A stretch of DNA of 64,000 bases from Bacteroidota bacterium (GTDB taxonomy: Bacteria > Bacteroidota > Bacteroidia > UBA8524). The translations under genes and the position numbers were made by a program. Under the pieces are notes generated by a model, which made no database searches, was not told the origin of the DNA, and was given only the letters and a program-made list of their open reading frames with translations. Location of the stretch: positions 38,156-102,155 of the forward strand of contig SBGR01000012.1 of the NCBI GenBank assembly GCA_006226545.1, given 5' to 3'. Shown piece by piece: positions 18,095 to 49,966 of the stretch. How positions within the stretch are numbered: position 1 is the first letter of the stretch; every line of letters starts with the position of its first letter.

Positions 18095-21000
18095 ATGAAA
18101 GTACAACAACGAAGACTATCTTTTCTCAAACAATTAAAGCTGCACCACATTTGGTTGCTGGCTGTATTAATTGTTAATCCGGTTCTGCTGCATGGGCAGA
18201 ATTACTGTGTGCCTACCGTGGTCAATCAAGCCAATTACAACCTCGGTATTGCCAATGTATCCCTAGGGAGTATTTCCAATAATACTGGAACTCCAAATCC
18301 TAACAATTATTATGTTGATTATTCTCAGACGCACATTACAACTGCGAATCCGGGTGCATTTATCAACTACACCTTAACAGCGGGTAATTCAAACAATACC
18401 CGTTTTTCCATTTTTGTCGACTGGAACCAGGATGGCACTTTTGGCGTTGGTAACTCAGAGCAGGTTATGCTCTCAGGAACAATCAATCCCAATCAGAGTA
18501 CCTCGGGTTCTTTTCAGGTTCCTGTTTCACAAACAGCAGGAGTTTACCGCATTAGAATTGTGGGCGACTTGGGTAGTCAGACGATCAATCCGTGTGTATT
18601 GAATTATACCGGTGACATTGAAGACTATACCTTAATCGTAACTTCTCCGGCTGTAGACATAGTTGGTGTAAGTTCACCTACGGTTCCATCTTTAGGAAAC
18701 GCGGCCGTTGAGTTAAAGGTGGCGAACATTTCAAATGGTACTGTAATTAATACCTATGAAATTGGGTATCGTTTGGACAATGGTACACCGGTAACTGAGA
18801 ACTTGAACACGCAGAACTTGGCTCCTGCTTCTTTGAGGGATCATACCTTCGGTACTTTATTAAACATTACAACTCCGGGTACTTATACTTTAAAGGTATG
18901 GGCAAGAAACCCGAATGGCTTAGGTTCAGGTACTGCATCAAATGATACGGTATACAAAACCTTTAAGTTGTGCTATCCAATCAGTGGTAATTTCACCATT
19001 AACCCAAATGGGGTTGGCCCAAATAACTTCACCTCATTTACAGATGCGGTGAACCAAATTGTGGATTGTGGTATCAATGGTCCGGTACACTTCGCTGTTG
19101 CTGCCGGAACTTACAATGAGCAAATCACAATTCCATTTATCAATGGTTCTTCTGCAACGAATACAGTAACCTTTGATGGTGGAGCCGGAAATTACCTAAC
19201 GCGTGTATTGTCTTTCAATACGGTTGATATTAACAACAGACACGTTGTGCGTATTGATGGGGCGGCTTATGTTAGCTTCAGAAACTTAAGTATCAGATCA
19301 ACAGGTGCCAGCTACGGATGGCCAGTTCACATTAAAGCGAACTCGCAACATGTCACTTTCGCTCGAAATCTGATTCAATCTGCCGATTACAATACAAGCA
19401 CAGGTAGCACGAACTTTATTCCTGTATGTATCTCAGGCTCTAATACATCGTATTCAAGTCCAGCCTCAAACACCAACAATGTTCGTATCGATAGTAATAT
19501 CATCCAAGGAGGTTATTTCAACTTTACCATGTGGGGTGGTGGAACTAGCACCAATAACTACGATATCTGGGTGAGAAGAAACATCCATGAAGCATTTTAC
19601 TACTATGGTTTATATGCGGTAAACTTGAGTAATATCCATATTCAGTGGAACCAATTCACTCAACGGGCAACCACTACTACAGGCGGATACGGTATTAGCC
19701 TATCAAGCATTAACTCTTCAGGTAACTTGATTACAGAGATTGAAGGAAACGACATTAGACGTAGCCATCAATACGGTATCTACCTTTCAAGTGTAAACAA
19801 CAATGGACAACGTGGAAAGTTGATTAACAACATGGCGGGTGCCGGTGCGGTTAGCACAGCTGCTATTACATGTTACATGACAAGCTCAAGCAACTTCGAC
19901 GTTTGGCACAATACCTTTGTCAACCCATCTGCAACAACAGGTACTAACAATGCTGCTTTGTATATCAATAGCAGTAACAATGCTTCGGTATTAAACAATA
20001 TCTTTAATCCAAGTTCAGTTGGTTCTTCAGCGTATGCCGTGTATGCAACGAGTACAACGCAATTTGCAGCCTTTGATTACAATAACTTCTACAAAGAGGG
20101 GTCAGATGTAAGTACTCCATTAATTTGGATGAACAACGTATTGCTTAATGCAAAATCGCTTGTTGGTGCTTCCGGATTTAACGTAAACAGTATTTCCGAG
20201 TCTCCATTGTTTATCTCCAATACAAACTACAGACTGAGCGCCAATGGTCAATCACCATTTGGTTCAGGAAACCTTGGCTTAACGGAAGACATCGATGGTG
20301 ACGTTAGATGTACTTTATTCCCATCTATTGGTGCGGATGAGTCGCCGTTTTCTGTTGCAAACCAGCCGAACATCATCATGCCGGATACGGTTTATGTTAA
20401 TTCACCAACCCCAATCTATAACTCGGCTAGCGCAGGTGAAGCGAAAAACCACGTTTGGACAATCAACGGTGGTGCCGCTGTATTTAATTCAGTGCACGTC
20501 AACTATACTTTCAATCTAGTTGGACTTTATGATGTTAAGTTAAGCACGGAGTCATGCTCCGGTACAGATACCGCATACAAGCAAGTGGTTGCTGTGGTTC
20601 CAACTCAGGCCCCTGTTTCTGCTTTCTTGGCAGATCAGAACGAAGCGGATCAAGGTTACCCTGTTCAATTCACGGATCAGAGCACCGGCGGTCCTTCTAG
20701 CTGGGTTTGGTCTATTACTCCGGCTACCGGCGTACAATTCTTAGGTTCTTCTAACGACCAAAATCCTAGCGTTGTTTTCAACCAAGTAGGTGAGTATGAA
20801 GTTTGTTTAATCGCTTCAAATATTGCTGGTCAGGGCAACCAACTTTGCCGCACCGCTTATATCCGTGTGGGTGAAGCCAATAATATGTGCGACCAAAAGA
20901 CGGTAAGTAAATCGCCTACAGGTAAGATCTTTGATACAGGCGGACGTAATGGCGACTATGCTAACGGAAGCAACTGTGGATTTTTGATCGATCCTTGTGC

Positions 21001-23644
21001 AAGCTCAGTTACATTGAGATTCTCAGCATTCAATTTGGATGCAGGTGATTACCTCCGTGTATTTGACGGTGCAGATGACATGGGTACTCCGTTGTATACT
21101 GGTGCCGGATTTACCGGTAGCATTGTTCCAACCGACTTAACTGCGTCAACCGGTAAAATGTATTTGCAGTTTATCAGTAACGGATCCGGTACACTTTCTG
21201 GATTTGAAGCAGCTTGGACATCCACAGCGAAAAATTTCGCTGCACCAGTAGCTGCATTCCGTGCTCCGGATACCCTTTATGTAGGAACAACCTTTACCTT
21301 CTTGAGTAACTCAACCGGTATTGATCCGGAGTTGAGATGGGATTTTGATAACGACGGTAATATTGATGCTACCGGAAGAACAGCTTCTCATACATTCACT
21401 ACCATCGGAACCCAATTGGTTCGTTTGACCATTGAAGATTGCGGTGGCCTTGACGGTGCTGTTAAAGCGATTACTGTTATTGCTCCTACAGCTGCTCCTT
21501 CACCTGATTTTGTGAGCGATTTCCGTACCATTACCTCAGGTCAAACGGTACGTTTCTACGATCGTTCTACTCAAGCTCCAGATTCTTGGGAGTGGATTTT
21601 TGCTCCAAACAAAGTAACCTTCATGGAAGGTACGGATATGTATTCTCAGAATCCTGTTGTTCGCTTTGATAGCGTTGCCAGCTACGATGTTACCTTAAAT
21701 GCATCGAATAGCTTCGGTACAGGAACTATTACAAAGAATGCAGCAATTCGTTCTGTTCAATATTGCTACCCTGGTGCAGGTTTGAATACCGACCTAGGTA
21801 TCACACGTGTAACATTTGCCGGTATCGACCAAGTATCACTTGTTGGTCCGGCTACCTATAGCGATTACTCTTTGAGCGTGGCTCCTGCTGCGGTACAAAA
21901 AGGATCTAGATATCCGATCATCATTGAAAGAGCAACTGCTAATGAAGACATGAGTCGTAAGGTATGGATCGACTTTAACGGTGATGGTGTATTTGGCCCA
22001 ACTGAAGAAGTAGCTTCTCATACTGCTGACAAATCATTGATGTGGATGGATTCCATTACCATTCCGGTAAGTGCGCAAGAAGGTTCTACCAGAATGCGTA
22101 TCGGAACAAGTTACGGTATCACGAATAACAGCGCTTGTGGTGTAAACCCTTACGGTGAGTTTGAAGACTATACTATTAACATCTACGAAAACTTAACCAG
22201 ACCGGTAATTACCTTGAATGGTTCTTCCGTGGTTTCGATTGAAGTAGGTTCAAACTACAACGACTCAGGTGCTACAGCTATGGATGATGTAGACGGTAAC
22301 TTATCGGCCTTCATCATTACAACTACCAACTTGAATACTCAGGTAGTTGGTACTTACTATGTTCGCTACAATGTTTCCGATAACAACGGTAACAGTGCGG
22401 AAGTTGAGCGTACGGTATACGTTACACCAGATATCACTCCTCCAGTGGTAACCTTGAATGGAACTACGCCAATGGCAGTGGTTGTTGGTACTCAATTTAT
22501 TGACCCAGGTGTTAATGCAATTGATTCTTACGACGGTGTAATTCCGGCTAGCGGAATCCAAGTATTCGGAACAGTGAACTCTTTGCAATTGGGTCAATAC
22601 ACTTTGACTTATACTGCAACGGATCAGGCCGGTAACATGGCCAGCGTTGTACGTATTGTGAATGTGGGTGATACCACCGTTCCACAGTTGTACTTGAAAG
22701 GTGCTGATACCATTGTAATCGCACTTGGACAAACCTTTGTAGATCCGGGTATTGTCGTATTAGACAATAACTCAAGCAACCTACCATTCAATGTAGACTA
22801 TACTGTTATTGACAATAGCGTAGTAGGTGATTATACTTTGACCTATACAGCAGTAGACAGTTCAGGTAATGTGGCTGTTCCGGTTTACCGTGTGGTTGCA
22901 GTGAGAGACTTAACGGCGCCTGTATTGAGCCTGGTAGGTGATACCGTTATCATCGAAGTGCATACTGCATTTGTTGATCCGGGTTACCATGTTAGCGATA
23001 ACTACGACCAAACTGTTCCAGTAAATGTTAATGGAGCTGTTGACACGGCCAAAACAGGTTTGTATGTGCTTTTCTACCAAGCAACAGACCAAGGTGGAAA
23101 CAACTCGGCTTTGCTTTACAGAATCGTACAAGTTCGTGATACGAAAGCGCCGGTTATCTCTTTGAATGGCGACAAATTCGTTACCCTCTGCCGTTGGGAA
23201 AGTTATACTGATCCGGGTTATACCGTGAGCGATAACTATGACCTAACTATTGAGGTAGAAGTTGAAAGCAGCTTGAAAGTGGAAACTGAAGGCTTGTACA
23301 GCATTCGCTATACAGCGCGCGATAAGGCGGGTAACGTAGCGATTGCAGCTGAACGCTTGATTAGAGTTATCGCTTGTGTAAACGGTGTAGCTCAGGCAAG
23401 TGAAAATCAAATTGAAGTTTATCCTAACCCAGGCCGCGGTGTATTCACCGTTCGCTTGAATGATGTAGCGACTCCAAGCGAAGTTAAAATCAGTGATTTG
23501 ACAGGTAAGATTTTGGATATCGCAGTTCAGCCAAGTACTGAAGGTGCGCAATTCGACATGACGCAGTTGCCTGCCGGTACCTACATGGTGATGGTGAACA
23601 CTTCAACAGGTCTAATCACTAAACGCATTCAAGTTATTCACTAA
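18095..23644 (+). CDS. giant secreted surface protein A (~1850 aa): signal peptide, GEVED, CARDB/Ig-like, beta-helix, PKD x2, CUB-like, PKD x2, GEVED, DUF5011/HYR-like x~6, T9SS type-A C-terminal sorting domain
   Basis: Track start 18062 is TTG; ATG 18095 gives the signal peptide MKVQQRRLSFLKQLKLHHIWLLAVLIVNPVLLHG-QN. Motifs seen include GDIEDYTLIV and GEFEDYTINIY (GEVED ends), IGADE (end of beta-helix), WDFDNDG (PKD), and repeated P.VITLNG…DPG…DNYD units. The C-terminus IEVYPNPGRGVFTVRL…GTYMVMVNTSTGLITKRIQVIH is a T9SS CTD. Confidence 0.9.
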   Translation: MKVQQRRLSFLKQLKLHHIWLLAVLIVNPVLLHGQNYCVPTVVNQANYNLGIANVSLGSISNNTGTPNPNNYYVDYSQTHITTANPGAFINYTLTAGNSNNTRFSIFVDWNQDGTFGVGNSEQVMLSGTINPNQSTSGSFQVPVSQTAGVYRIRIVGDLGSQTINPCVLNYTGDIEDYTLIVTSPAVDIVGVSSPTVPSLGNAAVELKVANISNGTVINTYEIGYRLDNGTPVTENLNTQNLAPASLRDHTFGTLLNITTPGTYTLKVWARNPNGLGSGTASNDTVYKTFKLCYPISGNFTINPNGVGPNNFTSFTDAVNQIVDCGINGPVHFAVAAGTYNEQITIPFINGSSATNTVTFDGGAGNYLTRVLSFNTVDINNRHVVRIDGAAYVSFRNLSIRSTGASYGWPVHIKANSQHVTFARNLIQSADYNTSTGSTNFIPVCISGSNTSYSSPASNTNNVRIDSNIIQGGYFNFTMWGGGTSTNNYDIWVRRNIHEAFYYYGLYAVNLSNIHIQWNQFTQRATTTTGGYGISLSSINSSGNLITEIEGNDIRRSHQYGIYLSSVNNNGQRGKLINNMAGAGAVSTAAITCYMTSSSNFDVWHNTFVNPSATTGTNNAALYINSSNNASVLNNIFNPSSVGSSAYAVYATSTTQFAAFDYNNFYKEGSDVSTPLIWMNNVLLNAKSLVGASGFNVNSISESPLFISNTNYRLSANGQSPFGSGNLGLTEDIDGDVRCTLFPSIGADESPFSVANQPNIIMPDTVYVNSPTPIYNSASAGEAKNHVWTINGGAAVFNSVHVNYTFNLVGLYDVKLSTESCSGTDTAYKQVVAVVPTQAPVSAFLADQNEADQGYPVQFTDQSTGGPSSWVWSITPATGVQFLGSSNDQNPSVVFNQVGEYEVCLIASNIAGQGNQLCRTAYIRVGEANNMCDQKTVSKSPTGKIFDTGGRNGDYANGSNCGFLIDPCASSVTLRFSAFNLDAGDYLRVFDGADDMGTPLYTGAGFTGSIVPTDLTASTGKMYLQFISNGSGTLSGFEAAWTSTAKNFAAPVAAFRAPDTLYVGTTFTFLSNSTGIDPELRWDFDNDGNIDATGRTASHTFTTIGTQLVRLTIEDCGGLDGAVKAITVIAPTAAPSPDFVSDFRTITSGQTVRFYDRSTQAPDSWEWIFAPNKVTFMEGTDMYSQNPVVRFDSVASYDVTLNASNSFGTGTITKNAAIRSVQYCYPGAGLNTDLGITRVTFAGIDQVSLVGPATYSDYSLSVAPAAVQKGSRYPIIIERATANEDMSRKVWIDFNGDGVFGPTEEVASHTADKSLMWMDSITIPVSAQEGSTRMRIGTSYGITNNSACGVNPYGEFEDYTINIYENLTRPVITLNGSSVVSIEVGSNYNDSGATAMDDVDGNLSAFIITTTNLNTQVVGTYYVRYNVSDNNGNSAEVERTVYVTPDITPPVVTLNGTTPMAVVVGTQFIDPGVNAIDSYDGVIPASGIQVFGTVNSLQLGQYTLTYTATDQAGNMASVVRIVNVGDTTVPQLYLKGADTIVIALGQTFVDPGIVVLDNNSSNLPFNVDYTVIDNSVVGDYTLTYTAVDSSGNVAVPVYRVVAVRDLTAPVLSLVGDTVIIEVHTAFVDPGYHVSDNYDQTVPVNVNGAVDTAKTGLYVLFYQATDQGGNNSALLYRIVQVRDTKAPVISLNGDKFVTLCRWESYTDPGYTVSDNYDLTIEVEVESSLKVETEGLYSIRYTARDKAGNVAIAAERLIRVIACVNGVAQASENQIEVYPNPGRGVFTVRLNDVATPSEVKISDLTGKILDIAVQPSTEGAQFDMTQLPAGTYMVMVNTSTGLITKRIQVIH
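20882..21233 (+). other. CUB-like domain inside gene A
   Basis: NMCDQKTVSKSPTGKIFDTGGRNGDYANGSNCGFLIDPCASSVTLRFSAFNLDAGDYLRVFDGADDMGTPLYTG…TGKMYLQFISNGSGTLSGFEAAWTS. The Cys spacing and the G.I.S..YP..Y..N..C.W.I / …F.LE….DYL.V.DG / GF.A.W pattern resemble CUB domains. Confidence 0.5.
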
Positions 23645-23660
23645 AAAAAAATAGCGTCGG

Positions 23661-23678
23661 GCGACACCTCGGTGTCGC
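23661..23678 (+). terminator. GC hairpin after gene A (no U-tract)
   Basis: GCGACACCtcGGTGTCGC immediately 3' of the stop. Confidence 0.3.
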
Positions 23679-23711
23679 TCGATTATATCCAAGAACATTA
23701 CAAAAGAAGAA

Positions 23712-26700
23712 ATGAAAGCTAGTAATATACGTAAGCTTATGCTCTGGATGCTAGGACTGGCATGGTCAGGACTGGCGCAGGCACAAACATACTGTTCGCC
23801 TGGAGCCACAAACGTTGCGAATTACGGATGTGGTATGCAGGAGGTGACGGTAGGGTCCATGACAAATTCGACTGGACAACCCAATTACCTTAATTACTAT
23901 TCCGATTATTCCTCACAGTTAGGAGCATCTGCAACAGCAGGTGCAATCGTGAACGTATCACTTCGCGCCGGTACCGGTAACTCTTCAAGATTTGGTATCT
24001 ACATCGACTGGAACAAAGACGGGGTCTTTGATGCCTCGGAGCAATTACTCTTAACAGGTACGGTTGGTGCTGGTTCTACTTACAATGGTAACATTACTGT
24101 GCCGGCTGCTCAGTCTACCGGTCTTTACAGAATGCGTATCGTAGGGGATATCAGTTTTGCCACAATTGACCCATGCGCATTGCAGTATACAGGTGAAATT
24201 GAAGACTACAGCTTTAGCGTTGTTGGTGCAAGCCTAGACGTTGCGGCAGTGGCAGGAACCAATTCATTAACTATTGGTAACAATACCCTAGCCTTGAATG
24301 TGGTTAACTTAACCTCGGCAACTACCCTTACCTCTCTTGATTTTGGTTACCGTTTAGATAATAATACTCCGGTTACCGAATCAGTAAATGGTTTGAACAT
24401 TGCCGGTGGTGGTTTCCACGAAAGAATCTTCAATACGGCATTGAATATTTCTACTCCGGGTATTTATACCTTGAAGATGTGGGTTCGTAACCCAAATGGT
24501 AACGGCGCCGGTATTGCCGGTAACGATACTGTAACCTATACTATTCAGGCTTGTTATCCTTTGAATGGTACTTATACCATCGACCCGAACGGATCTGGTG
24601 GTTCAAACTTTACCAGCTTCGCCGATGCGGTGAACTCACTTTCAATTTGTGGTATCAATGGTCCGGTTACGTTTAACGTAGCGGCAACCACATTTACAGA
24701 ACAAGTCAGCATTCCGTTTATTAGCGGCGTATCGTCTACCAATACCATCAACTTTGTTGGTGCCGGTAAGAACGCTACAACTTTAACTTATGGTAGCCAG
24801 ACTACAGATAGTCGCCATACCTTGCGTTTCGATGGTGCTGCTTTTGTGCAGTTCCGCGACATGACAGTTCGCTCAACCAATGGTTCATTTGGTTGGACCA
24901 TTCACCATACCGGTTCAGGTGGTGCGCAAAGCATCTTATTGAACAACTTGTCTATTGAATGTGCCGGCGGTGGCGCTAATACTACTAGCACTAACTTTAT
25001 AGGTGTAGTATACAGTGGTACAAACACAAGCTATACTTCAAACCTATTGGCATTCAATAACCGTGTTGATTCATGCGAAATTGATGGTGGTTACTTCAGT
25101 ATCAGTTTCTATGGTAACACAAGCACAAACGCTAACTATGGTAACTACTTTACTCACAATACCCTTACCAATGCCTACTACTACGGTTTCTATGCAAACT
25201 ACTTGAGTGAAATCAAGATTAAGAACAATACCGTTACTACCCGTACTTCAGGTACCACTACTACGGCTTCTTACGGTATGTATATCGTGAACAGCAATAA
25301 CAGCTATCCTTACCTTCATGAAATTGTAGGTAACAGAATCTACGATTGCGGTCGCTACGGTATTTACTTGAGCTCTACCAGTGGTTCAGTTGGTTCTAAA
25401 GGTATTATGGCCAATAACTTTATTGGTGGTAATTTTAGAAACACAAGTTTGGTAAACGCCATCTACATGAGCTATAGCAGCTGGTGGAATGTTTACTTCA
25501 ACAGTATTCACGTAGACAATAATGTAAACGGTGACGCTATTGGTATTTATGTAAACGGTAGTACAAATACCTTCACGTTGGACGTGCGTAATAACATGAT
25601 CCAAGTAACCGGTAACTCTACTAATCCACTAGCGGTTTATGCAAACTCTCATACACTCTTCTCTGAATTGGACTACAATAACTACTGGGTTACGAATTCT
25701 AGTAACCTGCTATTTGTAGGACAGACTTTGAATAAGAATGGTTTTGTTGGGGTGAATAATATGGACAATAACTCCAAAAATCTAGATGCACCTTACCAAA
25801 GCGCTACCAACCTTCGTTATACCAACGGTTGTATCAGTGGTATCTCTGTATCACAAGTAACCAAAGACATCGATGGTGATAACCGCACAAGCACACCAAA
25901 CATTGGAGCTGATGAGTTTATCAATACTTCAACCAATGATATTGGTATTGCTAAAATCTTAGAACCGGGTTCTCCAGTAACTACGGGTCAGCAAAATGTA
26001 GTTGTTCGTGTTAAAAATTACGGAACAAACACCATCAACTCAGCACAAGTTTCTTATACCTTAAACGGTGGTCAACCGGTAACCATTTCGTGGACCGGTA
26101 CACTATTGCCATGTGGTGAAATTGATGTAACCTTCAGCGGTGCTAATGCTGTGACTATCGGTCCTGGTGTTAATAGAATCAATGCTTACACAGCTCTTCC
26201 AGGTGGTAACTTGGATAACTTCCCTTCAAACGATGAATTGGAATTGACTGTTTGTCCTGCCATGAGCGGAACCTTCAGCATTGATGCAAACGGACAAGGC
26301 GCTAATAACTTCCGCAGCTTCACTGATGCGGTTGATGCCTTATCCTGCAGTGGCTTGAATGGTCCGGTAGTATTAAACGTGGCTCCAGGTACATACATTG
26401 AGCAGATTGCATTGAGAAACATCAACGGTGTTTCGGCTCAGAACAGCATTACCATTCAAGGACAAAGCGGACAAGCAGCTAGCACAGTATTGGGTTATAG
26501 CTCAGTGGTAAGTGCAGCACGTCACACACTATTATTGGATAACATGCAATATGTTACCATTAAAAACTTGACAATTCGCACACTCGGCACTAGCTATGGT
26601 TGGGCCCTCCATTTGATGGGAACAAGCTCAGATATCGCTATTGACTCTTGTAATATTGAAGTATTAGGTGGTGGTTCAACTTCTACCAGTACCAATTTTA

Positions 26701-41650: not shown

Positions 41651-41675
41651 GTACCCTCGTGGAGTGCGAGGGTAC
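41651..41675 (+). terminator. 9-bp-stem hairpin after gene D (no U-tract)
   Basis: GTACCCTCGtggagtgCGAGGGTAC. Confidence 0.3.
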
Positions 41676-42375: not shown

Positions 42376-42376
42376 C

Positions 42377-43384
42377 TTATCGATTTAGTTGTAATTGGTA
42401 ACAGTCAGACGCAAAGGCTTGTAAAACCTGCCGTTGCTTGTCGATATTTCTGCCTTTGGTCATTACGCTCAAGATAAAAGGTCGGCCTGCTACGTAAATA
42501 ATTCCTGTTTCATGCAATTGTATTGGAAAGCCATTAGCAGGGGCGTTTTGATTGATGCGGATGCCGTGTTTGTGCGCAAGTTGCACAGTCGCTGGAATCG
42601 CTTTTTTAAAGCCCGCTTTGTACTGGCTATTGGAAAGCATCTTGAGGGCCATTTCTGAATGTTCGTAATTCAAAAAGTTATGGTTGTACAAGGCATTGTA
42701 GATGCCGCTCAAGTGTGTCACTAGAATGATATCTTCCGTATTGGTGGCGGAATTGGGAATTTTAGCTTGAAGTTGATCTTCGGTTTCCTCCAGAAAGCCC
42801 GGTTGTTTTCCATCGATATAATACAATATTGCCAGGGTGGCTCGGTTATCAGAAAAGCGCACCATAATATCGGCTAGCTCGGCCAAAGAATAAGGTCTGT
42901 TCTGCCATTGTTGGTAAACCTCGTTTTCTTCCCAATTCATGTAATCATGAATGTCTTCAACATGAGGCACGTCTGTTAGGTCTGATAAATTTGCTTTGTT
43001 GGCCTCCACTAGCTTAAGCAGTCCAACAAGTGTTGGGACCTTCAGCAGCGATGCCGGAATAAATTTCTGTTCCGGGTGAATGCTCACACGGGTATTTGTG
43101 TTTAAGTCGCAGTAGTGAACGGCAATAGCTTGAATGTCTTCCTGAGCTTCATAGTGGTTGACAATCGAGTCTAATGTTTGATTTAGCATTTCCAGCCAAG
43201 CATGTGTTAAGCTAGAATCTGAATCTGACAGTGTTTCACGGGTATACCTGTAGGGGGTCTCTTTCACGGTAGATTGAGCCGAGGTAGTTTCCTTTTTTGC
43301 TTTTTCGGGTGAACAACCGAAGACGGAAACGAGGGAAAAAGAGAACAGCCAAAAGCTGTTTGAACAATAAAATCGAACTGGCAT
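42377..43384 (-). CDS. class A beta-lactamase-related serine hydrolase, lipoprotein
   Basis: 335 aa with a lipoprotein signal (…FSLVSVFGC-SP). Has an S-x-x-K motif (ASLLK), an SDN motif (RFSDNRAT), and a KTG-box analogue that reads KHG. Has a ~60-aa N-terminal extension relative to typical class A enzymes. Confidence 0.55.
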   Translation of the reverse strand: MPVRFYCSNSFWLFSFSLVSVFGCSPEKAKKETTSAQSTVKETPYRYTRETLSDSDSSLTHAWLEMLNQTLDSIVNHYEAQEDIQAIAVHYCDLNTNTRVSIHPEQKFIPASLLKVPTLVGLLKLVEANKANLSDLTDVPHVEDIHDYMNWEENEVYQQWQNRPYSLAELADIMVRFSDNRATLAILYYIDGKQPGFLEETEDQLQAKIPNSATNTEDIILVTHLSGIYNALYNHNFLNYEHSEMALKMLSNSQYKAGFKKAIPATVQLAHKHGIRINQNAPANGFPIQLHETGIIYVAGRPFILSVMTKGRNIDKQRQVLQAFASDCYQLQLNR

Positions 43385-43795: not shown

Positions 43796-46700
43796 ATGAT
43801 TAAACATTACTTTCAAACCAAGCTGTGGCTAGTTTTAGTCACACTATGTTCGGCTGTGGGGTTAAATGCTCAGTCATTTACATTCACTCCAGCTGGCGCA
43901 ACGGGGCAAAATGGCCCAACCCAAGCTCAAATTAACATTGCCTACCAAGGGGGGAGCCTTGATGGAAATGTACTCTCAGTAAGCGGTATCCAATACTGGA
44001 TAGTGCCTATTACAGGAATTTACCGTATTGAAACAACAGGTGCACAGGGCTACGGTCCTTTCGGTGGACGTGGTGCGAAAATGACGGGTGAATTTTTCTT
44101 AAACGCAGGTGATACCTTGAAAATGGCTGTAGGCCAAGCAGGTGGAGCCCCGGTTGGTGCTGGTACTAATCAGTACGGCGGCGGCGGTGGTACATTTGTA
44201 ACCAAATTCGATAATACACCATTGATTATCGCCGGTGGCGGTGGAGGATCTTGGGCTTCTGCCTACAATTCAACCACCGATGCAAATATTGGAACTTCGG
44301 GTAACGATGGTGTTAACGGACCTGCTAACAATGGCGTAGGTGGAATAAATGGAAATGGCGGAAATGGCTTAAGCAATGCCGGCGCTGGTGCAGGATTACT
44401 CTCAGATGCAACCGGAGATGTTTCCGGTGGTGATGCGTTTGTCAATGGTGCAGTTGGCGGTAGAGCAGCTACCAATGGTGGCGAAGGTGGTTTTGGTGGA
44501 GGCGGTGGCGCTTCCAGTTACAACAACCGTCGTTCCGGTGGTGGTGGTGGATACTCTGGTGGAGGTAGCTCCGCTGCAAGTAGCGCTACAGCTGGCTTTC
44601 CGGAAGGCGGCGGCGGTGGATCTTACAACGCCGGCGACAGACAAAACAACGTTGCTTCTGTAGGTTATGGCGATGGTGAAATCGTTATCACAATCTTGTC
44701 TACTGGTGCTTACAACGATGCAGGTGCTATCTCAGTTGATGAGCCTAAAGTATTTTGTTCTGGTCTGAACGACGTCATTGTTTCGGTAAGAAACTTTGGA
44801 GCCAACAGAATGGACAGTGTTCGCATCAACTGGATGATTGACACATTGCTTCAGCCTTCCTTTACCTATGTAGGTACTTTAGATACTATCGGTGGTACCG
44901 GTAGCAATACAGTTCAAGTAAACCTTGGCGCATTTAACTTTGGATCTGGTCCGTATGCAATAAAAGTATGGACAAGCCATCCGGGTGGTGGTATCGATAC
45001 AGTTAACGTGAACGATACGGTACGTGTAGTTAGACAAGCTAACCTGCCACCTCCAACTAATCTTTCAACTTCTAACATTACCACAAGTTCAGCAAACCTT
45101 AAATGGGAAGGCGGTAATTCACTAAATACTTGGGCATATGTGCTTTCTACATCAGCTAGTACGCCGGTTGGCCCGGGAACAATTGTGAGTGTAGATAGCG
45201 TTGTGTTTAACAACTTGGCAAGCCGCAGAACCTATTACTTCTACGTTCGCGAAATCTGTGCTTCAGGCGATAGTAGTGTTTGGGAAGGCCCAATTTCGTT
45301 TAGAACGGATTGTGGTAGCCCATTGGCCGGTACGTATACGCTTGACAAAAACCAAGCGGCTTCAACTACCAACTTTGTTTCATTTGAAGATGCTGCCTTG
45401 GCGCTTGCAGGATGCGGTGTAAATGGTCCGGTAGATATTTATGTTTCTGCAGATACCTATACCGAAAGAATTGAATTACCTGCAATTTCAGGTGCTTCAA
45501 GTGCTAATTTGATTCGCTTCATTGGTGCAGGGATTGGTCAAACCATCCTGACTTACAATGCCTCAAGTACTGCTGACCATGCAACGTGGACTTTTGACGG
45601 AGCTGACTTTGTTGAACTTCGCGATATGACCATCGGTGCTACGAATGCTACCAATGCCATTGGTGTTATGTTTACCAATCAAGCTGATAGCAATGCTATT
45701 CGCAATGTGAATATTGAGGTAAGTACTTCTGCTACGGGTACCGGAATCTTTGGTGTTGTCTTTTCTGGAGATAAAACGAGCGGAACCGCTTACGGTCGGA
45801 ATGGTGATTACAACCACCTAGACAGTGTGAACATCACAGGTGGTTACTATGCTATTCGCTTAAATGGTGAATCTGCCAACTATACCATTGAAAACCGTTT
45901 CACCAACATGTCGATTACGAATTTCTACATGTATGGTATCTATGCTTATTACAACAAGTTAACGGTTATCGATAATTCAACGATTCAAACTACTAGAAAT
46001 ACGGGTTCTGATGGTATTTATACCTTCTATTTGGCCAACCCAACCATTACGAATAATACAATCGTAGTTCCTGATTACGGTATCTATTTTAGCAACCTAA
46101 ACCCGGCGGCTAACTACGATAGCGGCATTCCTAGTTTAGTAGCGAATAACAAAATCATCAGTACAGGCGATTACGGGGTTTACCAGATTAGCAACGGCGG
46201 TGCTTTGCGTTTTGTGCACAATAGTGTGAACGTAAACTCTGGCTACGCAGTTCGCTTGAATGGCGGATCTAGAATGGTGGTAGCCAATAACCACATGCGT
46301 AATTACCGCACTACAGCTGCATCTTACGCTTTCTATACAACTGGTAGCTTCGATACATTAGACTACAATAACTACTTCAGCTTAGGTAGTGGCGACTTCT
46401 TATACGACGGCACAGCCTATAGCGATTTTGCTCGCTGGAAGTCGGATCATGCTCTTGTTGGACAAGAATTGTTTAGCTATAACGTTGATCCTAACTTTAT
46501 CAGCAATACCGATTTGCATATTGATCAAACCGTTCAGAACCTTCGTGGTATCGACTTCGGAATGACCTTGGATGCTGACGGAGATGTGCGTTGTGAGTTT
46601 GCTCCAACATTGGGTGCGGATGAGTCTAATTTTGCTACTCCAATTCCAACTGCACAAGTGGTTAGCGAAGATTCAATCTACGTGAACTCACCAAGCGGTT

Positions 46701-49700
46701 TCTACTCTGCATACCAACCATTGCAAAATGTACTTTGGGATTATACTTGGTACGTTAACGGTTCGCAAGAAAGTAAGTCGGTCGACTTCACTAAAACATT
46801 TGGATCAACAGGTACCTACCAATTGATTCTACGTGCAAGAAGCTGCTCAGGGGCTGATAGAGATACCTTGATGGTCAATGTAATCAACCCATCTCGCGTT
46901 CCGGCTACAGACTTCACAGCAAGCAAGCTTATCTTGAATCCATTGGAAGAGACCAAACTTTCTGATCTTTCAGAGTACGGTGCAACACAATGGGAATGGA
47001 CGGTTGTTCCTTCTACTAATGCATTCTTTGATAACCCTTACAGCAATGAGCCAACTTTGACAATCTTTGATCCGGGATCCTATGAAATTTGCCTTCAAAC
47101 AGCAAACTCAGTAGGTCAAGGAAACAAATTGTGCAAACGTGCTTATATCTCTGTAAACGATGATCGTGCAATGTGTGCTTCCAACAGAACTACCAATAGC
47201 GCAGGTCGTCTTACTGACGAAAACGGAGTATTGGGTAACTATACCCCAAATACCAACTGTAACTTCACCATTAACCCATGTGCCGGTCAAGTAGTACTTC
47301 GCTTCACAGAATGGGGAGTAAACGATGCAAACGATAAACTTTACCTATACAACGGTTTAGATGCAAACGCACCTTTGCTTGGTGTATTTGATGGAACTTC
47401 ATCTTTACCGGGTGGTGTTAACGGTATCGTTGCCAACAGTGGTAAAATGCACGTTGTTTGGACTACCGATGGTGCAGGACAGGGAACCGGTTTCGTAGCA
47501 TACTGGTCTTCTATTGCAGATACCACTACAAGTGCTCCAGTTGCCGATTTCAATGTACCTGATTCAATTTTTGTGGATCAAATTGTAGAATTTACCAGCA
47601 CAAGCCAAGGTCAGTCTCTGAACTACGTTTGGGATTTTGACCTTCCTAATTTGGAAGCAGGGCTCGACGGTGGAACCGGAATGAGCGATCGCTACAGCTG
47701 GAATGCAGGCGGACAATATCCTGTTCGTTTGATGGTTTCTAACTGTGGTGGTGTTGATACCATGGATAAAATGGTTGACGTAATTGCACCAACTAGCGCT
47801 CCGGTACCAGGGTTTACTGCCAGCCGTTTGCGTTTGCCGGTATTGAGTACATTAACCTTAACCGATACTAGCCGTCAAGGACCAGCTACTTGGAACTGGG
47901 AAATTACGCCTGCTGCTACCGTAAATATCTTGAGCAAAGATCAAGGACCTCAAATGCAAGTAGCATTTATGAAGAGCGGTTTGTACACCGTGAAATTGAA
48001 AGTAAGCAACAGTGTAGGTGTGGATAGCGTAGTTCGTGTTGATTACATTGAGGTATTCGATTACTGTGCACCTGTTGTAGGAAATATTAGCTCGGATGTA
48101 GCTATTAGCCGTGTTCAGTTTGGTGGTATCGACAACTACAGCAGTGTTGGTGTAGATAAATACACTAGCTATATCAACGACTTCAATGCTGAAGTACTTC
48201 CTAGAAGAAGCACATTCGATATTCGCTTAGAGCGCATGAATACCCAAGATCCAATGAATAGAAAAGTTTGGATCGATTGGAACAATGACGGTGACTTCAA
48301 TGATTCACTTGAACTTGTTGCGTATGAAGCTTCTGCTAATACCCAATCTTATACTGCTACAGTTACAGTTCCTGATTTTGCAGTTCCAGCCTTTACCCTA
48401 CTACGTGTAGGTGTAAGCTACGGTGCTGATCAGAACAGAGCTTGCGGTATTAACCCAACAGGTGAGTTTGAAGATTATCCGGTACAAATTATAATCGATA
48501 ATGAAGGTCCGGTAATTACCATGCTTGGACAGGATACTGTTTACGTAGAACAAGGTTACCAATACACCGATGCCGGTGCAACAGCATTAGACAACGTAGA
48601 TGGAAACCGTACTTCCTTCATTACCTTAAACAATACCGTTGATACTTCAATGGTTGGAAACTACTTCGTGAAATACAATGTGTTAGACGTTGATGGAAAT
48701 GCGGCAGTAGAACAAACTCGTGTGGTGATTGTAACGCCGGATGTTACAGCTCCGGTAATTACCTTGACGGGCGCGAACTCTGTTAATGTAACCGTGTTAA
48801 CCACTTATACAGACGACGGTGCAACTGCTAGCGATTACTTCCAACAGAACTTGAACAATAGCTTGAGTTTTAGCGATAACATCGACATGACTCAATTGGG
48901 TACTTACCACTACTGGTACACTGTTCAGGATGCTGCAGGTAACTACGACTCCGTTGCCAGAGAAGTAAATGTAATTGACGATGTAAATCCGGTGGTTATT
49001 GTTGCTAACGCAGGTCCAATTGTGATTGACGTTTACGAAGACATCAATGCTCCAGCATTTAACATCACCGATAACTTTGATCCAAATCCGGTAGTTGTCA
49101 TTGACAGCAGCGCGGTAGATAAAACAATGCCGGGTATTTACGACATGGTTTATACCGGTATGGATGGATCAGGTAATACAAGTAGTGTAATTGTTCAGGT
49201 TGAAGTGAAAGACCTCACTTTGCCAGTTATTACCTTGATTGGTAGCGATACCGTGATTGTTGATGTATACGATAGCTACAATGAACAAGGTGCTCAGGTA
49301 ACGGATAACTACTGCAACGGTTTAACCTGGTCTGTAATGAATCAGCCGATGACCTCTGTTCTTGGAGATTATGTATTGAGCTATAACGCTGTGGATTGCC
49401 AAGGTAATGCGGCACTCACTGTGAATCGTGTTGTGCGCGTTGTAGACCGTGAAGCTCCGGTTGTGGAGTTGAATGGATTTGCAGTTAGCACCATTATTCG
49501 CTGGCAAGGTTTCAACGATCCGGGAGTAACCATCGTTGACAACTACTACGACAATGCACAATTGCAAGATTCAGTGAAAATTACCAGCAACTTGGATCCA
49601 AATACAGTAGGTGTGTACAGCATGTGCTACCGTGTAACCGACTTGTCTGGAAACACTTCATCAAGCGTTTGTAGAACAGTAAACGTGGTTGAGAACTTGA

Positions 49701-49966
49701 CTTCGGTTTCGCCATTGTCGAATACTCAAATCAAAGTTTACCCTAACCCAAGTGCTGGACAGTTCAACCTTGAGTTTGCAGAAGCATTGAATGCAAATGC
49801 AACGATTCAGGTATACGACATGACCGGTAAATTGGTGATGGAAACAACTGCAAAAGCAGGTGTGAGCCAAATGCAATTGAACTTGAATGCTAATCCGGGT
49901 ATGTACCATGTACGTATCAGCGATGCACATTCAAACACAAGCTTGAAATTGGAAATTATCCGATAA
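43796..49966 (+). CDS. giant secreted surface protein E (2056 aa): signal peptide, ~270-aa glycine-rich domain, CARDB-like, FN3-like, beta-helix, PKD x2, CUB-like, PKD x2, GEVED, DUF5011 x~6, T9SS type-A CTD
   Basis: ATG 43796 with signal peptide MIKHYFQTKLWLVLVTLCSAVGLNA-QS. GGGGGTFVT…GGGGASSYNNRRSGGGGGYSGGGS is the Gly-rich block. PPPTNLSTSNITTSSANLKWEG…YYFYVREIC is the FN3-like region. GEFEDYPVQII is a GEVED end. The C-terminus IKVYPNPSAGQFNLEF…GMYHVRISDAHSNTSLKLEIIR is a T9SS CTD. Confidence 0.9.
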   Translation: MIKHYFQTKLWLVLVTLCSAVGLNAQSFTFTPAGATGQNGPTQAQINIAYQGGSLDGNVLSVSGIQYWIVPITGIYRIETTGAQGYGPFGGRGAKMTGEFFLNAGDTLKMAVGQAGGAPVGAGTNQYGGGGGTFVTKFDNTPLIIAGGGGGSWASAYNSTTDANIGTSGNDGVNGPANNGVGGINGNGGNGLSNAGAGAGLLSDATGDVSGGDAFVNGAVGGRAATNGGEGGFGGGGGASSYNNRRSGGGGGYSGGGSSAASSATAGFPEGGGGGSYNAGDRQNNVASVGYGDGEIVITILSTGAYNDAGAISVDEPKVFCSGLNDVIVSVRNFGANRMDSVRINWMIDTLLQPSFTYVGTLDTIGGTGSNTVQVNLGAFNFGSGPYAIKVWTSHPGGGIDTVNVNDTVRVVRQANLPPPTNLSTSNITTSSANLKWEGGNSLNTWAYVLSTSASTPVGPGTIVSVDSVVFNNLASRRTYYFYVREICASGDSSVWEGPISFRTDCGSPLAGTYTLDKNQAASTTNFVSFEDAALALAGCGVNGPVDIYVSADTYTERIELPAISGASSANLIRFIGAGIGQTILTYNASSTADHATWTFDGADFVELRDMTIGATNATNAIGVMFTNQADSNAIRNVNIEVSTSATGTGIFGVVFSGDKTSGTAYGRNGDYNHLDSVNITGGYYAIRLNGESANYTIENRFTNMSITNFYMYGIYAYYNKLTVIDNSTIQTTRNTGSDGIYTFYLANPTITNNTIVVPDYGIYFSNLNPAANYDSGIPSLVANNKIISTGDYGVYQISNGGALRFVHNSVNVNSGYAVRLNGGSRMVVANNHMRNYRTTAASYAFYTTGSFDTLDYNNYFSLGSGDFLYDGTAYSDFARWKSDHALVGQELFSYNVDPNFISNTDLHIDQTVQNLRGIDFGMTLDADGDVRCEFAPTLGADESNFATPIPTAQVVSEDSIYVNSPSGFYSAYQPLQNVLWDYTWYVNGSQESKSVDFTKTFGSTGTYQLILRARSCSGADRDTLMVNVINPSRVPATDFTASKLILNPLEETKLSDLSEYGATQWEWTVVPSTNAFFDNPYSNEPTLTIFDPGSYEICLQTANSVGQGNKLCKRAYISVNDDRAMCASNRTTNSAGRLTDENGVLGNYTPNTNCNFTINPCAGQVVLRFTEWGVNDANDKLYLYNGLDANAPLLGVFDGTSSLPGGVNGIVANSGKMHVVWTTDGAGQGTGFVAYWSSIADTTTSAPVADFNVPDSIFVDQIVEFTSTSQGQSLNYVWDFDLPNLEAGLDGGTGMSDRYSWNAGGQYPVRLMVSNCGGVDTMDKMVDVIAPTSAPVPGFTASRLRLPVLSTLTLTDTSRQGPATWNWEITPAATVNILSKDQGPQMQVAFMKSGLYTVKLKVSNSVGVDSVVRVDYIEVFDYCAPVVGNISSDVAISRVQFGGIDNYSSVGVDKYTSYINDFNAEVLPRRSTFDIRLERMNTQDPMNRKVWIDWNNDGDFNDSLELVAYEASANTQSYTATVTVPDFAVPAFTLLRVGVSYGADQNRACGINPTGEFEDYPVQIIIDNEGPVITMLGQDTVYVEQGYQYTDAGATALDNVDGNRTSFITLNNTVDTSMVGNYFVKYNVLDVDGNAAVEQTRVVIVTPDVTAPVITLTGANSVNVTVLTTYTDDGATASDYFQQNLNNSLSFSDNIDMTQLGTYHYWYTVQDAAGNYDSVAREVNVIDDVNPVVIVANAGPIVIDVYEDINAPAFNITDNFDPNPVVVIDSSAVDKTMPGIYDMVYTGMDGSGNTSSVIVQVEVKDLTLPVITLIGSDTVIVDVYDSYNEQGAQVTDNYCNGLTWSVMNQPMTSVLGDYVLSYNAVDCQGNAALTVNRVVRVVDREAPVVELNGFAVSTIIRWQGFNDPGVTIVDNYYDNAQLQDSVKITSNLDPNTVGVYSMCYRVTDLSGNTSSSVCRTVNVVENLTSVSPLSNTQIKVYPNPSAGQFNLEFAEALNANATIQVYDMTGKLVMETTAKAGVSQMQLNLNANPGMYHVRISDAHSNTSLKLEIIR
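47171..47512 (+). other. CUB-like domain inside gene E
   Basis: RAMCASNRTTNSAGRLTDENGVLGNYTPNTNCNFTINPCAGQVVLRFTEWGVNDANDKLYLYNGLDANAPLLGVFDG…ANSGKMHVVWTTDGAGQGTGFVAYWSS. Confidence 0.5.

What the first reader, a model, noticed from the sequence alone, without database searches (positions are those of the whole stretch)
18095..49966. Tandem family of five giant T9SS-cargo genes, four sharing one ordered domain grammar, placed directly downstream of ftsZ
Seen in sequence: ORFs 18095-23644, 23712-32591, 32641-37056 and 43796-49966 are collinear paralogs. Each encodes a signal peptide and a GEVED-like domain ending in G(D/E)(I/V)E(D/E)Y. A CARDB/Ig-like module and a long Asn/Gly/Thr-rich right-handed beta-helix-like segment ending in IGADE follow in genes A, B and E; gene C instead has a ~150-aa unrecognised N-terminal region before its first GEVED. 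Then come two PKD-like modules (WDFDNDG), a CUB-like module, two more PKD-like modules, and a second GEVED (YGEFEDY / YGEVEEY). The proteins finish with 5-8 repeats of a ~75-aa DUF5011/HYR-like unit (P.VITLNG…DPG…DNYD…G.Y.ltY.a.D.sGN) and an ~80-aa T9SS type-A C-terminal sorting domain. The fifth gene (37130-41566) has a different architecture. With it the array totals ~9,800 codons, about half of a window that is otherwise core housekeeping. By established knowledge these families mark Bacteroidota cell-surface adhesins and gliding or surface proteins. Having four-plus-one in a head-to-tail array abutting the division cluster is unusual. It suggests recent expansion and diversification of one modular surface protein, and inter-paralog recombination would be possible.
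Basis: partly seen in the sequence, partly recalled or inferred. Interest (0 to 1): 0.6.

Follow-up and report, generated by a model that had tools for sequence, protein, structure and literature searches.

The report
Conserved array of T9SS surface fibrils
Five very large neighbouring genes in an uncultured Bacteroidia bacterium encode secreted cell-surface fibre proteins, four built on one fixed 12-domain stalk with different tips (one resembling the ligand-binding domain of the human ALK receptor); the array is old and conserved, not a recent expansion, and belongs to a known class of proteins.

Summary
The five giant ORFs exist as described, and A, B, C and E are collinear paralogues. All four end in the same 12-domain cassette: PKD2-CUB-PKD2-GEVED-5x Bact_surface_Ig-like-type A T9SS CTD. 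D is unrelated and carries a type B (CHU_C) CTD.

- Each protein has exactly five Ig-like repeats, not 5-8.
- E has no N-terminal GEVED. Its tip is an ALK/LTK-type TNF-like/glycine-rich domain (E=7e-16 to human ALK, confirmed by modelling).
- C's "unrecognised" N-terminus is BNR_assoc_N-like.
- B carries three Ig+beta-helix units.
- Two unrelated genes separate D from E.
- A 696-bp spacer with a terminator-like hairpin separates ftsZ from A.

"Recent expansion" is not supported. Paralogues are 32-40% identical and share no DNA word longer than 21 nt. Each has a 54-68% identical orthologue in sister species, one of which carries B-C-D-DUF179-bla-E-hyp-recJ in the same order with almost the same lengths. 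The E-only relatives look like secondary losses.

The stalk cassette recurs in at least 47 protein clusters with heads of 39-1862 aa.

Best reading: T9SS-exported fibrillar adhesin-like proteins, a fixed stalk carrying exchangeable, probably glycan-binding, tips. They are new members of a known kind; interest is modest.

The parts
15974..17398 (+). ftsZ, last gene of the dcw cluster (context, not part of the system)
   Evidence: TIGR00065 375.8 bits, cut-off 295
17694..17727 (+). Terminator-like hairpin (CCCCGTCC-loop-GGCGGGG followed by T7) between ftsZ and gene A
   Evidence: Top + strand terminator-like site in the scan. Folds at -26.1 kcal/mol with z=-2.95 in its 91-nt context. L003 has an equivalent hairpin.
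17800..17990 (+). Upstream block of gene A conserved across three species, containing TAnnTTTG motifs at 17827 and 17939 and the invariant word CAAGCCAGA (CAAGCCAGAGAG in the window and L002); probable promoter or leader
   Evidence: Alignment A4; motif scan; no Rfam match and no consensus fold
18095..23644 (+). Gene A, 1849 aa. Signal peptide; GEVED tip (aa 105-181; nt 18407-18637); Ig-like (182-292; 18638-18970); beta-helix ending in IGADE (293-754; 18971-20356); stalk PKD2-CUB-PKD2-GEVED-5xIg (755-1758; 20357-23368); type A CTD (1775-1846; 23417-23632)
23712..32591 (+). Gene B, 2959 aa. Signal peptide; GEVED tip (aa 95-169; nt 23994-24218); three tandem Ig+beta-helix units, each ending in IGADE (170-1854; 24219-29273); the same stalk (1855-2865; 29274-32306); type A CTD (2883-2956; 32358-32579)
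32641..37056 (+). Gene C, 1471 aa. Signal peptide; BNR_assoc_N-like tip (aa 43-162; nt 32767-33126); GEVED (252-324; 33394-33612); no beta-helix; the same stalk (329-1379; 33625-36777); type A CTD (1396-1468; 36826-37044)
37130..41566 (+). Gene D, 1478 aa (a gene caller starts it at 37193). Signal peptide; SBBP beta-propeller (about aa 49-480); roughly 95-aa Cys-containing repeats (about 581-1390); type B CTD CHU_C (1392-1474; nt 41303-41551)
41818..42375 (+). DUF179/AlgH-like gene interrupting the array (resident neighbour, probably unrelated)
   Evidence: PF02622 139.9 bits. Follows ftsZ directly in L004.
42377..43384 (-). Class A beta-lactamase-like gene on the opposite strand (resident neighbour, probably unrelated)
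   Evidence: PF13354 98 bits. Conserved next to E in L001, L071, L072 and L074.
43796..49966 (+). Gene E, 2056 aa. Signal peptide; ALK/LTK-type TNF-like plus glycine-rich tip (aa 25-301; nt 43868-44698); Ig-like (303-415; 44702-45040); fn3/Ig (420-506; 45053-45313); beta-helix ending in LGADE (507-948; 45314-46639); the same stalk (949-1964; 46640-49687); type A CTD (1981-2053; 49736-49954)
50037..50918 (+). Conserved hypothetical protein (293 aa ORF, about 275 aa as called) that always lies between E and recJ in relatives; no family hit
51014..52720 (+). recJ, downstream boundary of the interval (context)
   Evidence: TIGR00644 497.7 bits

Best explanation
A, B, C and E are Sec-exported, T9SS-translocated proteins that stand on the outer surface as long fibrils.

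Architecture. Each fibril has three parts:
- A C-terminal type A sorting domain that directs export. By analogy with studied T9SS cargo, it is removed on attachment to the cell surface.
- An invariant stalk of 11 beta-sandwich domains: PKD-PKD-CUB-PKD-PKD-GEVED-5 Ig-like.
- A variable head made of 0-3 [Ig + right-handed beta-helix] units, capped by a small tip module.

Tip modules:
- A and B: a GEVED-type module.
- C: a BNR_assoc_N-like sugar-binding-type module.
- E: an ALK-type polyglycine-rich module.

Function. The tips, and possibly a tyrosine-lined face of the beta-helices, bind external ligands, most likely glycans or particles. The stalk holds them at a set distance from the membrane. 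D is a fifth, unrelated fibril-like protein (beta-propeller, Cys-repeats, type B sorting domain).

Transcription and evolution. A-D appear to form one transcription unit with its own promoter, insulated from ftsZ. E has a separate promoter. The locus is an old, vertically inherited set of non-redundant paralogues in one uncultured Bacteroidia clade. Evolution has acted by whole-gene duplication long ago, by changes in the number of head units, and by replacement of tips.

Shown: domain content and order, paralogy and orthology, conservation of the array, the folds of two heads, and the absence of gene conversion.
Inferred: export, surface anchoring, ligand binding and co-transcription.
For: - Sorting domains: PF18962 passes its cut-off in A, B, C and E, and PF13585 in D. 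TIGR04183 passes in A, C and E. N-terminal signal-peptide-like sequences are seen in all five.
- Stalk: the 12-domain C-terminal grammar is identical in all four, with exactly 5 Ig repeats each.
- Stalk family: the same grammar is found in 47 of the best 150 representatives in a 1.84-billion-protein library, with heads of 39-1862 aa built as [tip]-[Ig-beta-helix]0-3.
- Published framework: fibrillar adhesins are defined by head, stalk and anchor, with Por_Secre_tail and CHU_C listed as anchors (PMC8286594). GEVED was defined in the adhesin CshA (PMC10952558).
- A head: model pLDDT 87, pTM 0.85, a beta-sandwich plus beta-helix. The fold is shared with carbohydrate-active proteins and with the adhesin PfbA. 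Conserved residues in the helix body are only Asn, Gly and Tyr, with no shared acid/base pair.
- E tip: phmmer E=7e-16 to human ALK. The model is confident over residues 1-280, and all 21 significant PDB hits are ALK, LTK or SCD-2.
- Tip replacement: at the position orthologous to E, sister species carry either this tip or a DUF7402/galactose-binding-like tip on the same scaffold.
- Conservation: orthologues are 54-68% identical, against RecJ at 62%, with conserved lengths and order. The CUB domain (A, C) and the glycine-rich tip (E) are the best conserved parts.
- Transcription: intergenic gaps A-B, B-C and C-D are 49-136 bp with no + strand terminator-like site. A strong hairpin and TAnnTTTG motifs lie in the ftsZ-A spacer.
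Against: - No experiment exists and the organism is uncultured. The window comes from a Logan assembly of SRR8389942.
- No T9SS machinery gene lies in the 64 kb.
- None of the heads is on the published list of proven adhesive domains.
- The closest solved structures to the beta-helix are mostly enzymes: AlgE4 epimerase, PL6 lyases, GH87 and phage depolymerases.
- Type A cargo can be released rather than anchored.
- D scores below the NCBIfam cut-off for TIGR04131 (26.4 against 35). It has no PorP/SprF-like gene beside it, here or in relatives.
- Pfam itself did not report PF12810 on E. That assignment rests on PDB homology and on the PF12810 labels of homologues.
- Terminator and promoter calls are consensus matches only, and the total number of terminator-like sites is not above the shuffled expectation.
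Confidence: 0.7

Rival explanations
1. The proteins are surface-tethered or secreted polysaccharide-active enzymes. The beta-helix units would be lyase, epimerase or glycosidase catalytic modules, and the stalk and tips would serve as carbohydrate-binding and spacing modules.
For: - Pfam Beta_helix and NosD hits occur in B and E.
- Many T9SS cargoes in Bacteroidota are glycan-degrading enzymes (established knowledge).
Against: - Identity to all of these enzymes is only about 15%, and the fold is equally shared with the adhesins PfbA and Vag8.
- Across 21 aligned units, no acidic or basic residue is conserved in the helix body. Only the Asn ladder, Gly and a Tyr stack are conserved, and the invariant D, R and E lie in the C-terminal cap motif.
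- C has no beta-helix at all yet keeps the stalk and is equally conserved.
- No match to any specific CAZy-type Pfam family passes threshold.
Confidence: 0.13
2. The proteins are gliding-motility adhesins of the SprB/RemA type, carried along the cell surface by the gliding machinery.
For: - D carries a type B CTD of the kind found on SprB, plus Cys-containing repeats typical of 'gliding motility-associated C-terminal domain' proteins.
- One D relative is named 'gliding motility-associated-like protein' by its source.
- RemA-type adhesins use type A CTDs (established knowledge).
Against: - No gld/spr genes and no PorP/SprF-like partner lie next to D, here or in four related loci.
- No sequence similarity to SprB or RemA was reported by any search.
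- Whether this lineage glides at all is unknown.
Confidence: 0.08
3. This is the first reader's reading: a recently expanded and still diversifying tandem family, with inter-paralogue recombination generating new variants.
For: - Four head-to-tail paralogues share one grammar.
- One relative has an additional paralogue (L072).
- Tips differ at the orthologous E position among species.
Against: - Paralogues are 32-40% identical, with no DNA tract above 231 nt at 67% and no shared word longer than 21 nt.
- Repeats are on average more similar to the same-position repeat in another paralogue than to repeats in their own gene.
- Each paralogue has its own orthologue in species whose FtsA+FtsZ are 84-86% identical to the window's, with gene lengths kept to within a few residues.
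Confidence: 0.03

Closest known systems
Fibrillar adhesin-like proteins of Bacteroidota with Por_Secre_tail or CHU_C anchors (Monzon et al. 2021, PMC8286594)
   Same: A long multidomain protein with an N-terminal head, a stalk of repeated Ig-like domains and a C-terminal T9SS sorting domain used as anchor.
   Different: The stalk here is not a variable-number repeat. It is a fixed, ordered 12-domain cassette found in at least 47 clusters. The heads (beta-helix, GEVED, ALK-type glycine-rich, BNR_assoc_N-like) are not on the list of proven adhesive domains. No binding has been shown.
Streptococcal fibrillar adhesin CshA, source of the GEVED domain PF20009 (PMC10952558)
   Same: GEVED domains score above the Pfam cut-off, both near the tip and inside the stalk. 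That paper proposes domain shuffling of tips on stalks.
   Different: CshA is a Gram-positive, sortase-anchored protein with an NR2 ligand-binding domain upstream of GEVED. No NR2 domain was detected here, and the anchoring system is T9SS.
ALK/LTK receptor TNF-like plus glycine-rich (TG) ligand-binding domain, and the bacterial 'glycine-rich protein' family PF12810
   Same: E residues 25-301 align to human ALK at E=7e-16, including the FT..GA.G..GPTQ.Q....Y motif and the poly-Gly runs. The model's significant PDB matches are all ALK, LTK or SCD-2, at 27-30% identity. At least 1,810 clusters match this tip; most listed are unnamed or bacterial metagenome/MAG proteins, and many are about 385-aa Bacteroidota proteins with a T9SS CTD.
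   Different: Here the domain is the tip of a 2,056-aa fibril rather than part of a receptor kinase or a small stand-alone secreted protein. Its ligand is unknown. The Pfam scan did not report PF12810 on E itself.
Right-handed beta-helix (pectin-lyase fold) proteins: AlgE4, NosD, PL6 lyases, phage tailspikes, adhesin PfbA
   Different: About 15% identity, and no conserved catalytic residues. Each unit is preceded by an Ig-like domain and closed by a D.DG..R...P.IGADE cap.
Flavobacterium johnsoniae SprB/RemA gliding adhesins (established knowledge, not retrieved here)
   Same: Giant repetitive T9SS cargo. SprB uses a type B CTD, like D.
   Different: No detected sequence similarity, and no sprF/porP-like gene adjacent to D. 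The domain content is different.

Membership tests
T9SS type A cargo (A, B, C, E) | C-terminal sorting domain matching PF18962/TIGR04183 above the curated cut-off | tested here: met
   PF18962 scores 39.9-52.5 bits (cut-off 27) in all four. TIGR04183 scores 39-47 bits (cut-off 23) in A, C and E. B is not listed by NCBIfam.
T9SS type A cargo (A, B, C, E) | N-terminal Sec signal peptide | tested here: inconclusive
   A basic N-terminus, a hydrophobic stretch and an A-x-A/AQ-like site are visible in all five. No signal-peptide predictor was available.
T9SS type A cargo (A, B, C, E) | T9SS machinery present in the genome (porK/L/M/N, sprA, porU, porV) | not testable with these tools
   Only 64 kb of this organism is available, and none of these genes lies in the window.
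T9SS type B cargo (D) | C-terminal domain matching PF13585/TIGR04131 | tested here: inconclusive
   PF13585 scores 46.7 bits, above its cut-off of 27. TIGR04131 scores 26.4 bits, below its cut-off of 35.
T9SS type B cargo (D) | Cognate PorP/SprF-like outer-membrane protein encoded next to the cargo gene (usual but not universal; established knowledge) | tested here: not met
   The neighbours of D are C and DUF179 here, and C plus DUF179 or bla in L071, L072 and L074.
Fibrillar adhesin-like protein (Monzon et al. 2021) | Stalk of repeated Ig-like domains plus a recognised anchor domain | tested here: met
   Eleven beta-sandwich domains followed by Por_Secre_tail. The anchor list comes from PMC8286594.
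Fibrillar adhesin-like protein (Monzon et al. 2021) | A known adhesive domain | tested here: inconclusive
   The heads are GEVED, BNR_assoc_N-like, ALK-type glycine-rich and beta-helix. None has demonstrated adhesive function in these proteins.
ALK/LTK-type glycine-rich domain (PF12810), tip of E | Sequence homology to the ALK TG domain covering both the TNF-like and the glycine-rich parts | tested here: met
   phmmer E=7e-16, with two stretches, query 28-117 and 127-262.
ALK/LTK-type glycine-rich domain (PF12810), tip of E | Same fold | tested here: met
   AF2 pLDDT is mostly above 90 over residues 1-280. In Foldseek, ranks 1-21 are all ALK, LTK or SCD-2, with E down to 2e-15 and TM score up to 0.73.
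ALK/LTK-type glycine-rich domain (PF12810), tip of E | Direct Pfam PF12810 hit above cut-off | tested here: not met
   hmmscan of E 1-420 returned no family at E<=1. Many close homologues carry a precomputed PF12810 label. Loss to the composition filter is the likely cause (inference).
Polysaccharide lyase / epimerase / glycosidase of the beta-helix fold | Right-handed beta-helix fold | tested here: met
Polysaccharide lyase / epimerase / glycosidase of the beta-helix fold | Conserved catalytic acid/base (and Ca2+-binding) residues in the groove | tested here: not met
   No conserved D, E, K, R or H in the helix body across 21 units.
   No CARDB hit at E<=1. The model shows a generic beta-sandwich.

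The most novel reading that the evidence does not exclude
The 12-domain stalk is a fixed-length display scaffold used by a whole, so far undescribed, family in an uncultured Bacteroidia clade. Small ligand-binding tips are exchanged on this scaffold, even between orthologues. One of these tips is an ALK-type polyglycine-II domain. It would be the first case of that fold acting as the business end of a bacterial surface fibril. Bacterial versions are 40-48% identical to cnidarian ALK-like proteins, so this could bear on the origin and ancestral ligand of the metazoan ALK/LTK ligand-binding domain. The unusually conserved central CUB domain would then be a shared docking site rather than a spacer.
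Probability: 0.25. Interest if true: 0.55.

Novelty: new member of a known kind. Interest (0 to 1): 0.3.

Why it matters
Giant T9SS cargo proteins make up a large and mostly unannotated part of Bacteroidota genomes. This locus gives a clean dissection of one such family:
- An invariant stalk cassette.
- A countable head unit (Ig + beta-helix, 0-3 copies).
- Replaceable tips.

That grammar can be used to annotate dozens of 'DUF5011/PKD repeat' proteins. It also nominates specific small domains for binding studies: the tip of E at residues 25-301, of C at 43-162, and of A at 34-181.

The locus further shows that a tandem array of look-alike giant genes need not be a recent or recombining expansion.

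The ALK-type tip is a tractable bacterial model for a fold that matters in human oncology, but the domain is already known to occur in bacteria.

Tried and rejected
- Sigma-70 promoter scans found fewer sites than shuffled sequence, as expected for Bacteroidota, so they were uninformative. One scan call failed on the 20-kb limit.
- Rfam at gathering threshold found nothing in the window. A permissive Rfam search of the ftsZ-A spacer gave only chance-level hits. RNAalifold on the conserved upstream block gave no structure, -0.39 kcal/mol.
- A gene-conversion search by blastn and longest shared word found nothing. Concerted evolution of repeats was rejected.
- A literature search for bacterial ALK-type glycine-rich domains found no paper on bacterial members. 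It found only structural papers listing ALK, phage S16 gp38 and an antifreeze protein as polyglycine-II bundles.
- A CARDB assignment for the Ig module was not supported.
- hyp293 was considered as a possible PorP/SprF-like partner. It has no Pfam or NCBIfam hit and its sequence shows short repeats rich in charged residues, with nothing to suggest an outer-membrane beta-barrel (reading of the sequence only).
- The tips do not evolve uniformly faster than the stalks, so a simple 'hypervariable tip' model was dropped.
- The word-indexed homologue search with the A head returned only 19 hits and missed obvious orthologues, so family size was taken from the exhaustive search instead.

Full report
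**Observation.** The window holds five large + strand ORFs at the stated coordinates:
- A: 18095-23644, 1849 aa
- B: 23712-32591, 2959 aa
- C: 32641-37056, 1471 aa
- D: 37130-41566, 1478 aa
- E: 43796-49966, 2056 aa

Together they make 9,813 codons, 46% of the window. Upstream is a complete dcw cluster ending in ftsA and ftsZ. Downstream are a conserved hypothetical gene, recJ and lptB. Two unrelated genes sit between D and E: DUF179/AlgH (41818-42375) and a class A beta-lactamase-like gene on the opposite strand (42377-43384).

**Domain content.**
- Pfam hits pass their cut-offs in A, B, C and E for GEVED, PKD/PKD_4, Bact_surface_Ig-like (the former DUF5011) and Por_Secre_tail. CUB passes in A and E.
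- TIGR04183 passes in A, C and E.
- D has CHU_C (46.7 bits, cut-off 27) and SBBP beta-propeller repeats. Its TIGR04131 score of 26.4 is below NCBIfam's cut-off of 35.
- Pfam reports only the best stretch, so I built local HMMs and mapped every copy. All four paralogues end in the same ordered cassette: PKD-PKD-CUB-PKD-PKD-(about 70 aa + GEVED)-five Ig-like repeats-CTD. Each has exactly five repeats, not 5-8.

**Heads.** The heads differ between paralogues:
- A: GEVED tip, Ig-like domain, beta-helix.
- B: GEVED tip and three tandem Ig+beta-helix units, each closed by IGADE.
- C: a BNR_assoc_N-like module (29.9 bits, cut-off 25) and GEVED, with no beta-helix.

E residues about 25-301 match the TNF-like plus glycine-rich ligand-binding region of human ALK at E=7e-16. 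They also match LTK and C. elegans SCD-2. An AlphaFold model built on 46 homologues is confident over residues 1-280, and all 21 of its significant PDB matches are ALK, LTK or SCD-2.

This domain family (PF12810) is common among the homologues retrieved. At least 1,810 clusters match the tip, and many are about 385-aa Bacteroidota proteins with a T9SS CTD.

D consists of a beta-propeller, roughly 95-aa Cys-containing repeats and the type B CTD.

**Age of the family.**
- Paralogues are collinear but only 32-40% identical.
- At DNA level, the best inter-paralogue tract is 231 nt at 67%, and the longest shared exact word is 21 nt.
- PKD and Ig repeats resemble the repeat at the same position in another paralogue (34% and 40%) more than other repeats in their own gene (24% and 33%).

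So an already complete stalk was duplicated as a whole, long ago, and there has been no homogenisation or recent gene conversion.

**Relatives.** The window's genome is not in the species-representative collection. It matches a Logan assembly of run SRR8389942. The nearest genomes are uncultured Bacteroidia MAGs with 77-80% FtsZ identity.
- L002 and L003 have A and B orthologues directly after ftsZ, 58-59% and 56-59% identical to the window's.
- L071 lies on the same contig as L003, in GCA_041232725. It continues with B (2960 aa), C (1472), D (1499), DUF179, bla, E (2053), the hypothetical gene and recJ. This is the same order as the window, with almost the same lengths.
- L072 has B, C, D, bla, an extra paralogue and E.
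- L074 and L075 have B, C, D, DUF179, bla and an E-type gene.
- L004 has only ftsZ-DUF179-E-hyp-recJ, and L001 has ftsZ-bla-E.
- Relatives with 60% FtsZ identity or less have none of these genes after ftsZ.

FtsA+FtsZ distances place L001, L002, L004 and L005 in one tight group (90-96%). The window and L003 sit on deeper branches at 84-86%. The A-D block is therefore present on branches spanning the clade, and its absence in L001 and L004 is most simply secondary loss.

Orthologue identities are:
- A: 58-59%
- B: 56-68% (the lower values come from the N-terminal part, the higher from the C-terminal part)
- C: 61-65%
- E: 54-58%

These resemble RecJ at 62%. D is faster, at 39-46%. 'Recent expansion' and 'recombining paralogues' are therefore not supported.

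**The stalk as a family.** A profile of the four stalks was searched against 1.84 billion representatives. It found 15,816 proteins at E<=1e-30, mostly generic Ig- or PKD-repeat proteins.
- Among the best 150, 47 carry the exact 12-domain grammar at their C-terminus, and about 20 more are near variants.
- Their heads range from 39 to 1862 aa and follow one rule: [tip]-[Ig-beta-helix]n, with n = 0-3.
- Each window architecture has its own clusters, and other tips also occur.
- Source names are only generic, such as 'DUF5011 domain-containing protein' and 'PKD repeat protein', and the ten representatives looked up come from MAGs or metagenome assemblies.
- Members also occur singly among housekeeping genes in other MAGs.
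- At the position orthologous to E, sister species carry either the ALK-type tip or a DUF7402/galactose-binding-like tip on the same scaffold.
- Between orthologues the CTD is the least conserved part (26-48%). The CUB domain (71-82% in A and C) and the glycine-rich tip (68-70% in E) are the most conserved.

**Function.** The A head model (pLDDT 87, pTM 0.85) shows a beta-sandwich followed by a right-handed beta-helix.
- Across 21 aligned units, the helix body conserves only an Asn ladder, glycines and a tyrosine stack.
- The invariant charged residues lie in the C-terminal cap motif D.DG..R...P.IGADE.

This speaks against a shared catalytic site and for a structural or binding role, without excluding enzymatic activity in individual units.

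The overall layout matches the published definition of fibrillar adhesin-like proteins, which lists Por_Secre_tail and CHU_C as Bacteroidota anchors (PMC8286594). GEVED itself was defined in the fibrillar adhesin CshA, in a paper that proposes domain shuffling of tips on stalks (PMC10952558).

**Transcription (inferred).**
- The ftsZ-A spacer is 696 bp at 33% GC. It contains the strongest + strand terminator-like hairpin of the region (17694-17719 plus a T-run). Bacteroidota-type TAnnTTTG motifs follow at 17827 and 17939.
- L003 has an equivalent hairpin, and a block of about 190 nt upstream of A is conserved in three species.
- The gaps A-B, B-C and C-D are 49-136 bp, with no + strand terminator-like site.
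- E has its own 411-bp upstream region with a TAnnTTTG motif.

The position next to the division genes therefore looks like adjacency, not co-regulation.

**Verdict.** The T9SS surface-protein reading is supported, and the evolutionary reading is not. The locus is an old, conserved set of non-redundant fibrillar adhesin-like genes of a known class. Two useful additions come out of the analysis: a fixed stalk cassette with a simple head grammar, and an ALK-type glycine-rich tip on E. I rate it a new member of a known kind with modest interest.

Noticed in passing
window 43868-44698 (gene E, aa 25-301): The tip of E is homologous to the TNF-like plus glycine-rich ligand-binding domain of human ALK/LTK (E=7e-16). 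The Pfam scan gave no hit on this region, although many homologues carry PF12810.
   Followed up: yes
one search hit list (P0105, P0123, P0150): Cnidarian (coral) ALK-like or PF12810+EGF proteins are 40-48% identical to the bacterial E tip. That is much closer than human ALK at 27-30%. This could reflect horizontal transfer, slow evolution or contamination.
   Followed up: no
window 17640-17735: A TAnnTTTG motif at 17651 is followed by two hairpins, the second a strong terminator (17694-17727). This could be a roughly 70-nt small RNA, or simply the ftsZ terminator. There are no Rfam matches above chance.
   Followed up: partly
window ~17800-17990; L002 ~11560-11775; L003 ~11600-11810: A roughly 190-nt block upstream of gene A is conserved at DNA level in three species (the word CAAGCCAGA is identical in all three). 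That is unusual for intergenic DNA at this divergence. There is no consensus RNA fold.
   Followed up: partly
window 50037-50918: A hypothetical protein with four or five internal repeats of about 45-70 aa (W..FE..W...G..L.D) and no Pfam or NCBIfam hit. It always lies between the E-type gene and recJ in relatives (L004, L071).
   Followed up: partly
window 50940-50984: A 19-bp-stem hairpin followed by a T-rich tail lies between the hypothetical gene and recJ. It is the longest-stemmed (top-listed) terminator-like structure in the 36.9-53.5 kb scan.
   Followed up: no
window 37130-41566 (gene D) and L071, L072, L074: The type B CTD protein D has no PorP/SprF-like gene beside it in any of the loci. 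It evolves faster (39-46% between orthologues) than its neighbours, and it has only about 8 full-length homologues among 5.8 billion protein clusters.
   Followed up: partly
CUB domains: A aa 932-1040, B 2034-2144, C 518-659, E 1127-1236: The central CUB domain is the best conserved stalk element between orthologues of A and C (71-82%), and it is strongly conserved between paralogues. This suggests a specific role rather than a spacer.
   Followed up: partly
window 53716-54393 (- strand): A 225-aa ORF with a weak REP-associated tyrosine transposase / IS200-like match (48 bits, below the cut-off of 80).
   Followed up: no
L002, L006, L014, L017 record titles: Several MAG contigs with clearly Bacteroidia-type ftsA-ftsZ loci are titled 'uncultured Burkholderiales bacterium', 'Agrobacterium sp.' or 'Thermoplasmata archaeon'. 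These are probably mis-binned or mislabelled records.
   Followed up: no
L072 15957-21437: One relative has a sixth giant gene, an extra E-like paralogue with a DUF7402-like tip inserted before the E orthologue. It also lacks DUF179.
   Followed up: partly
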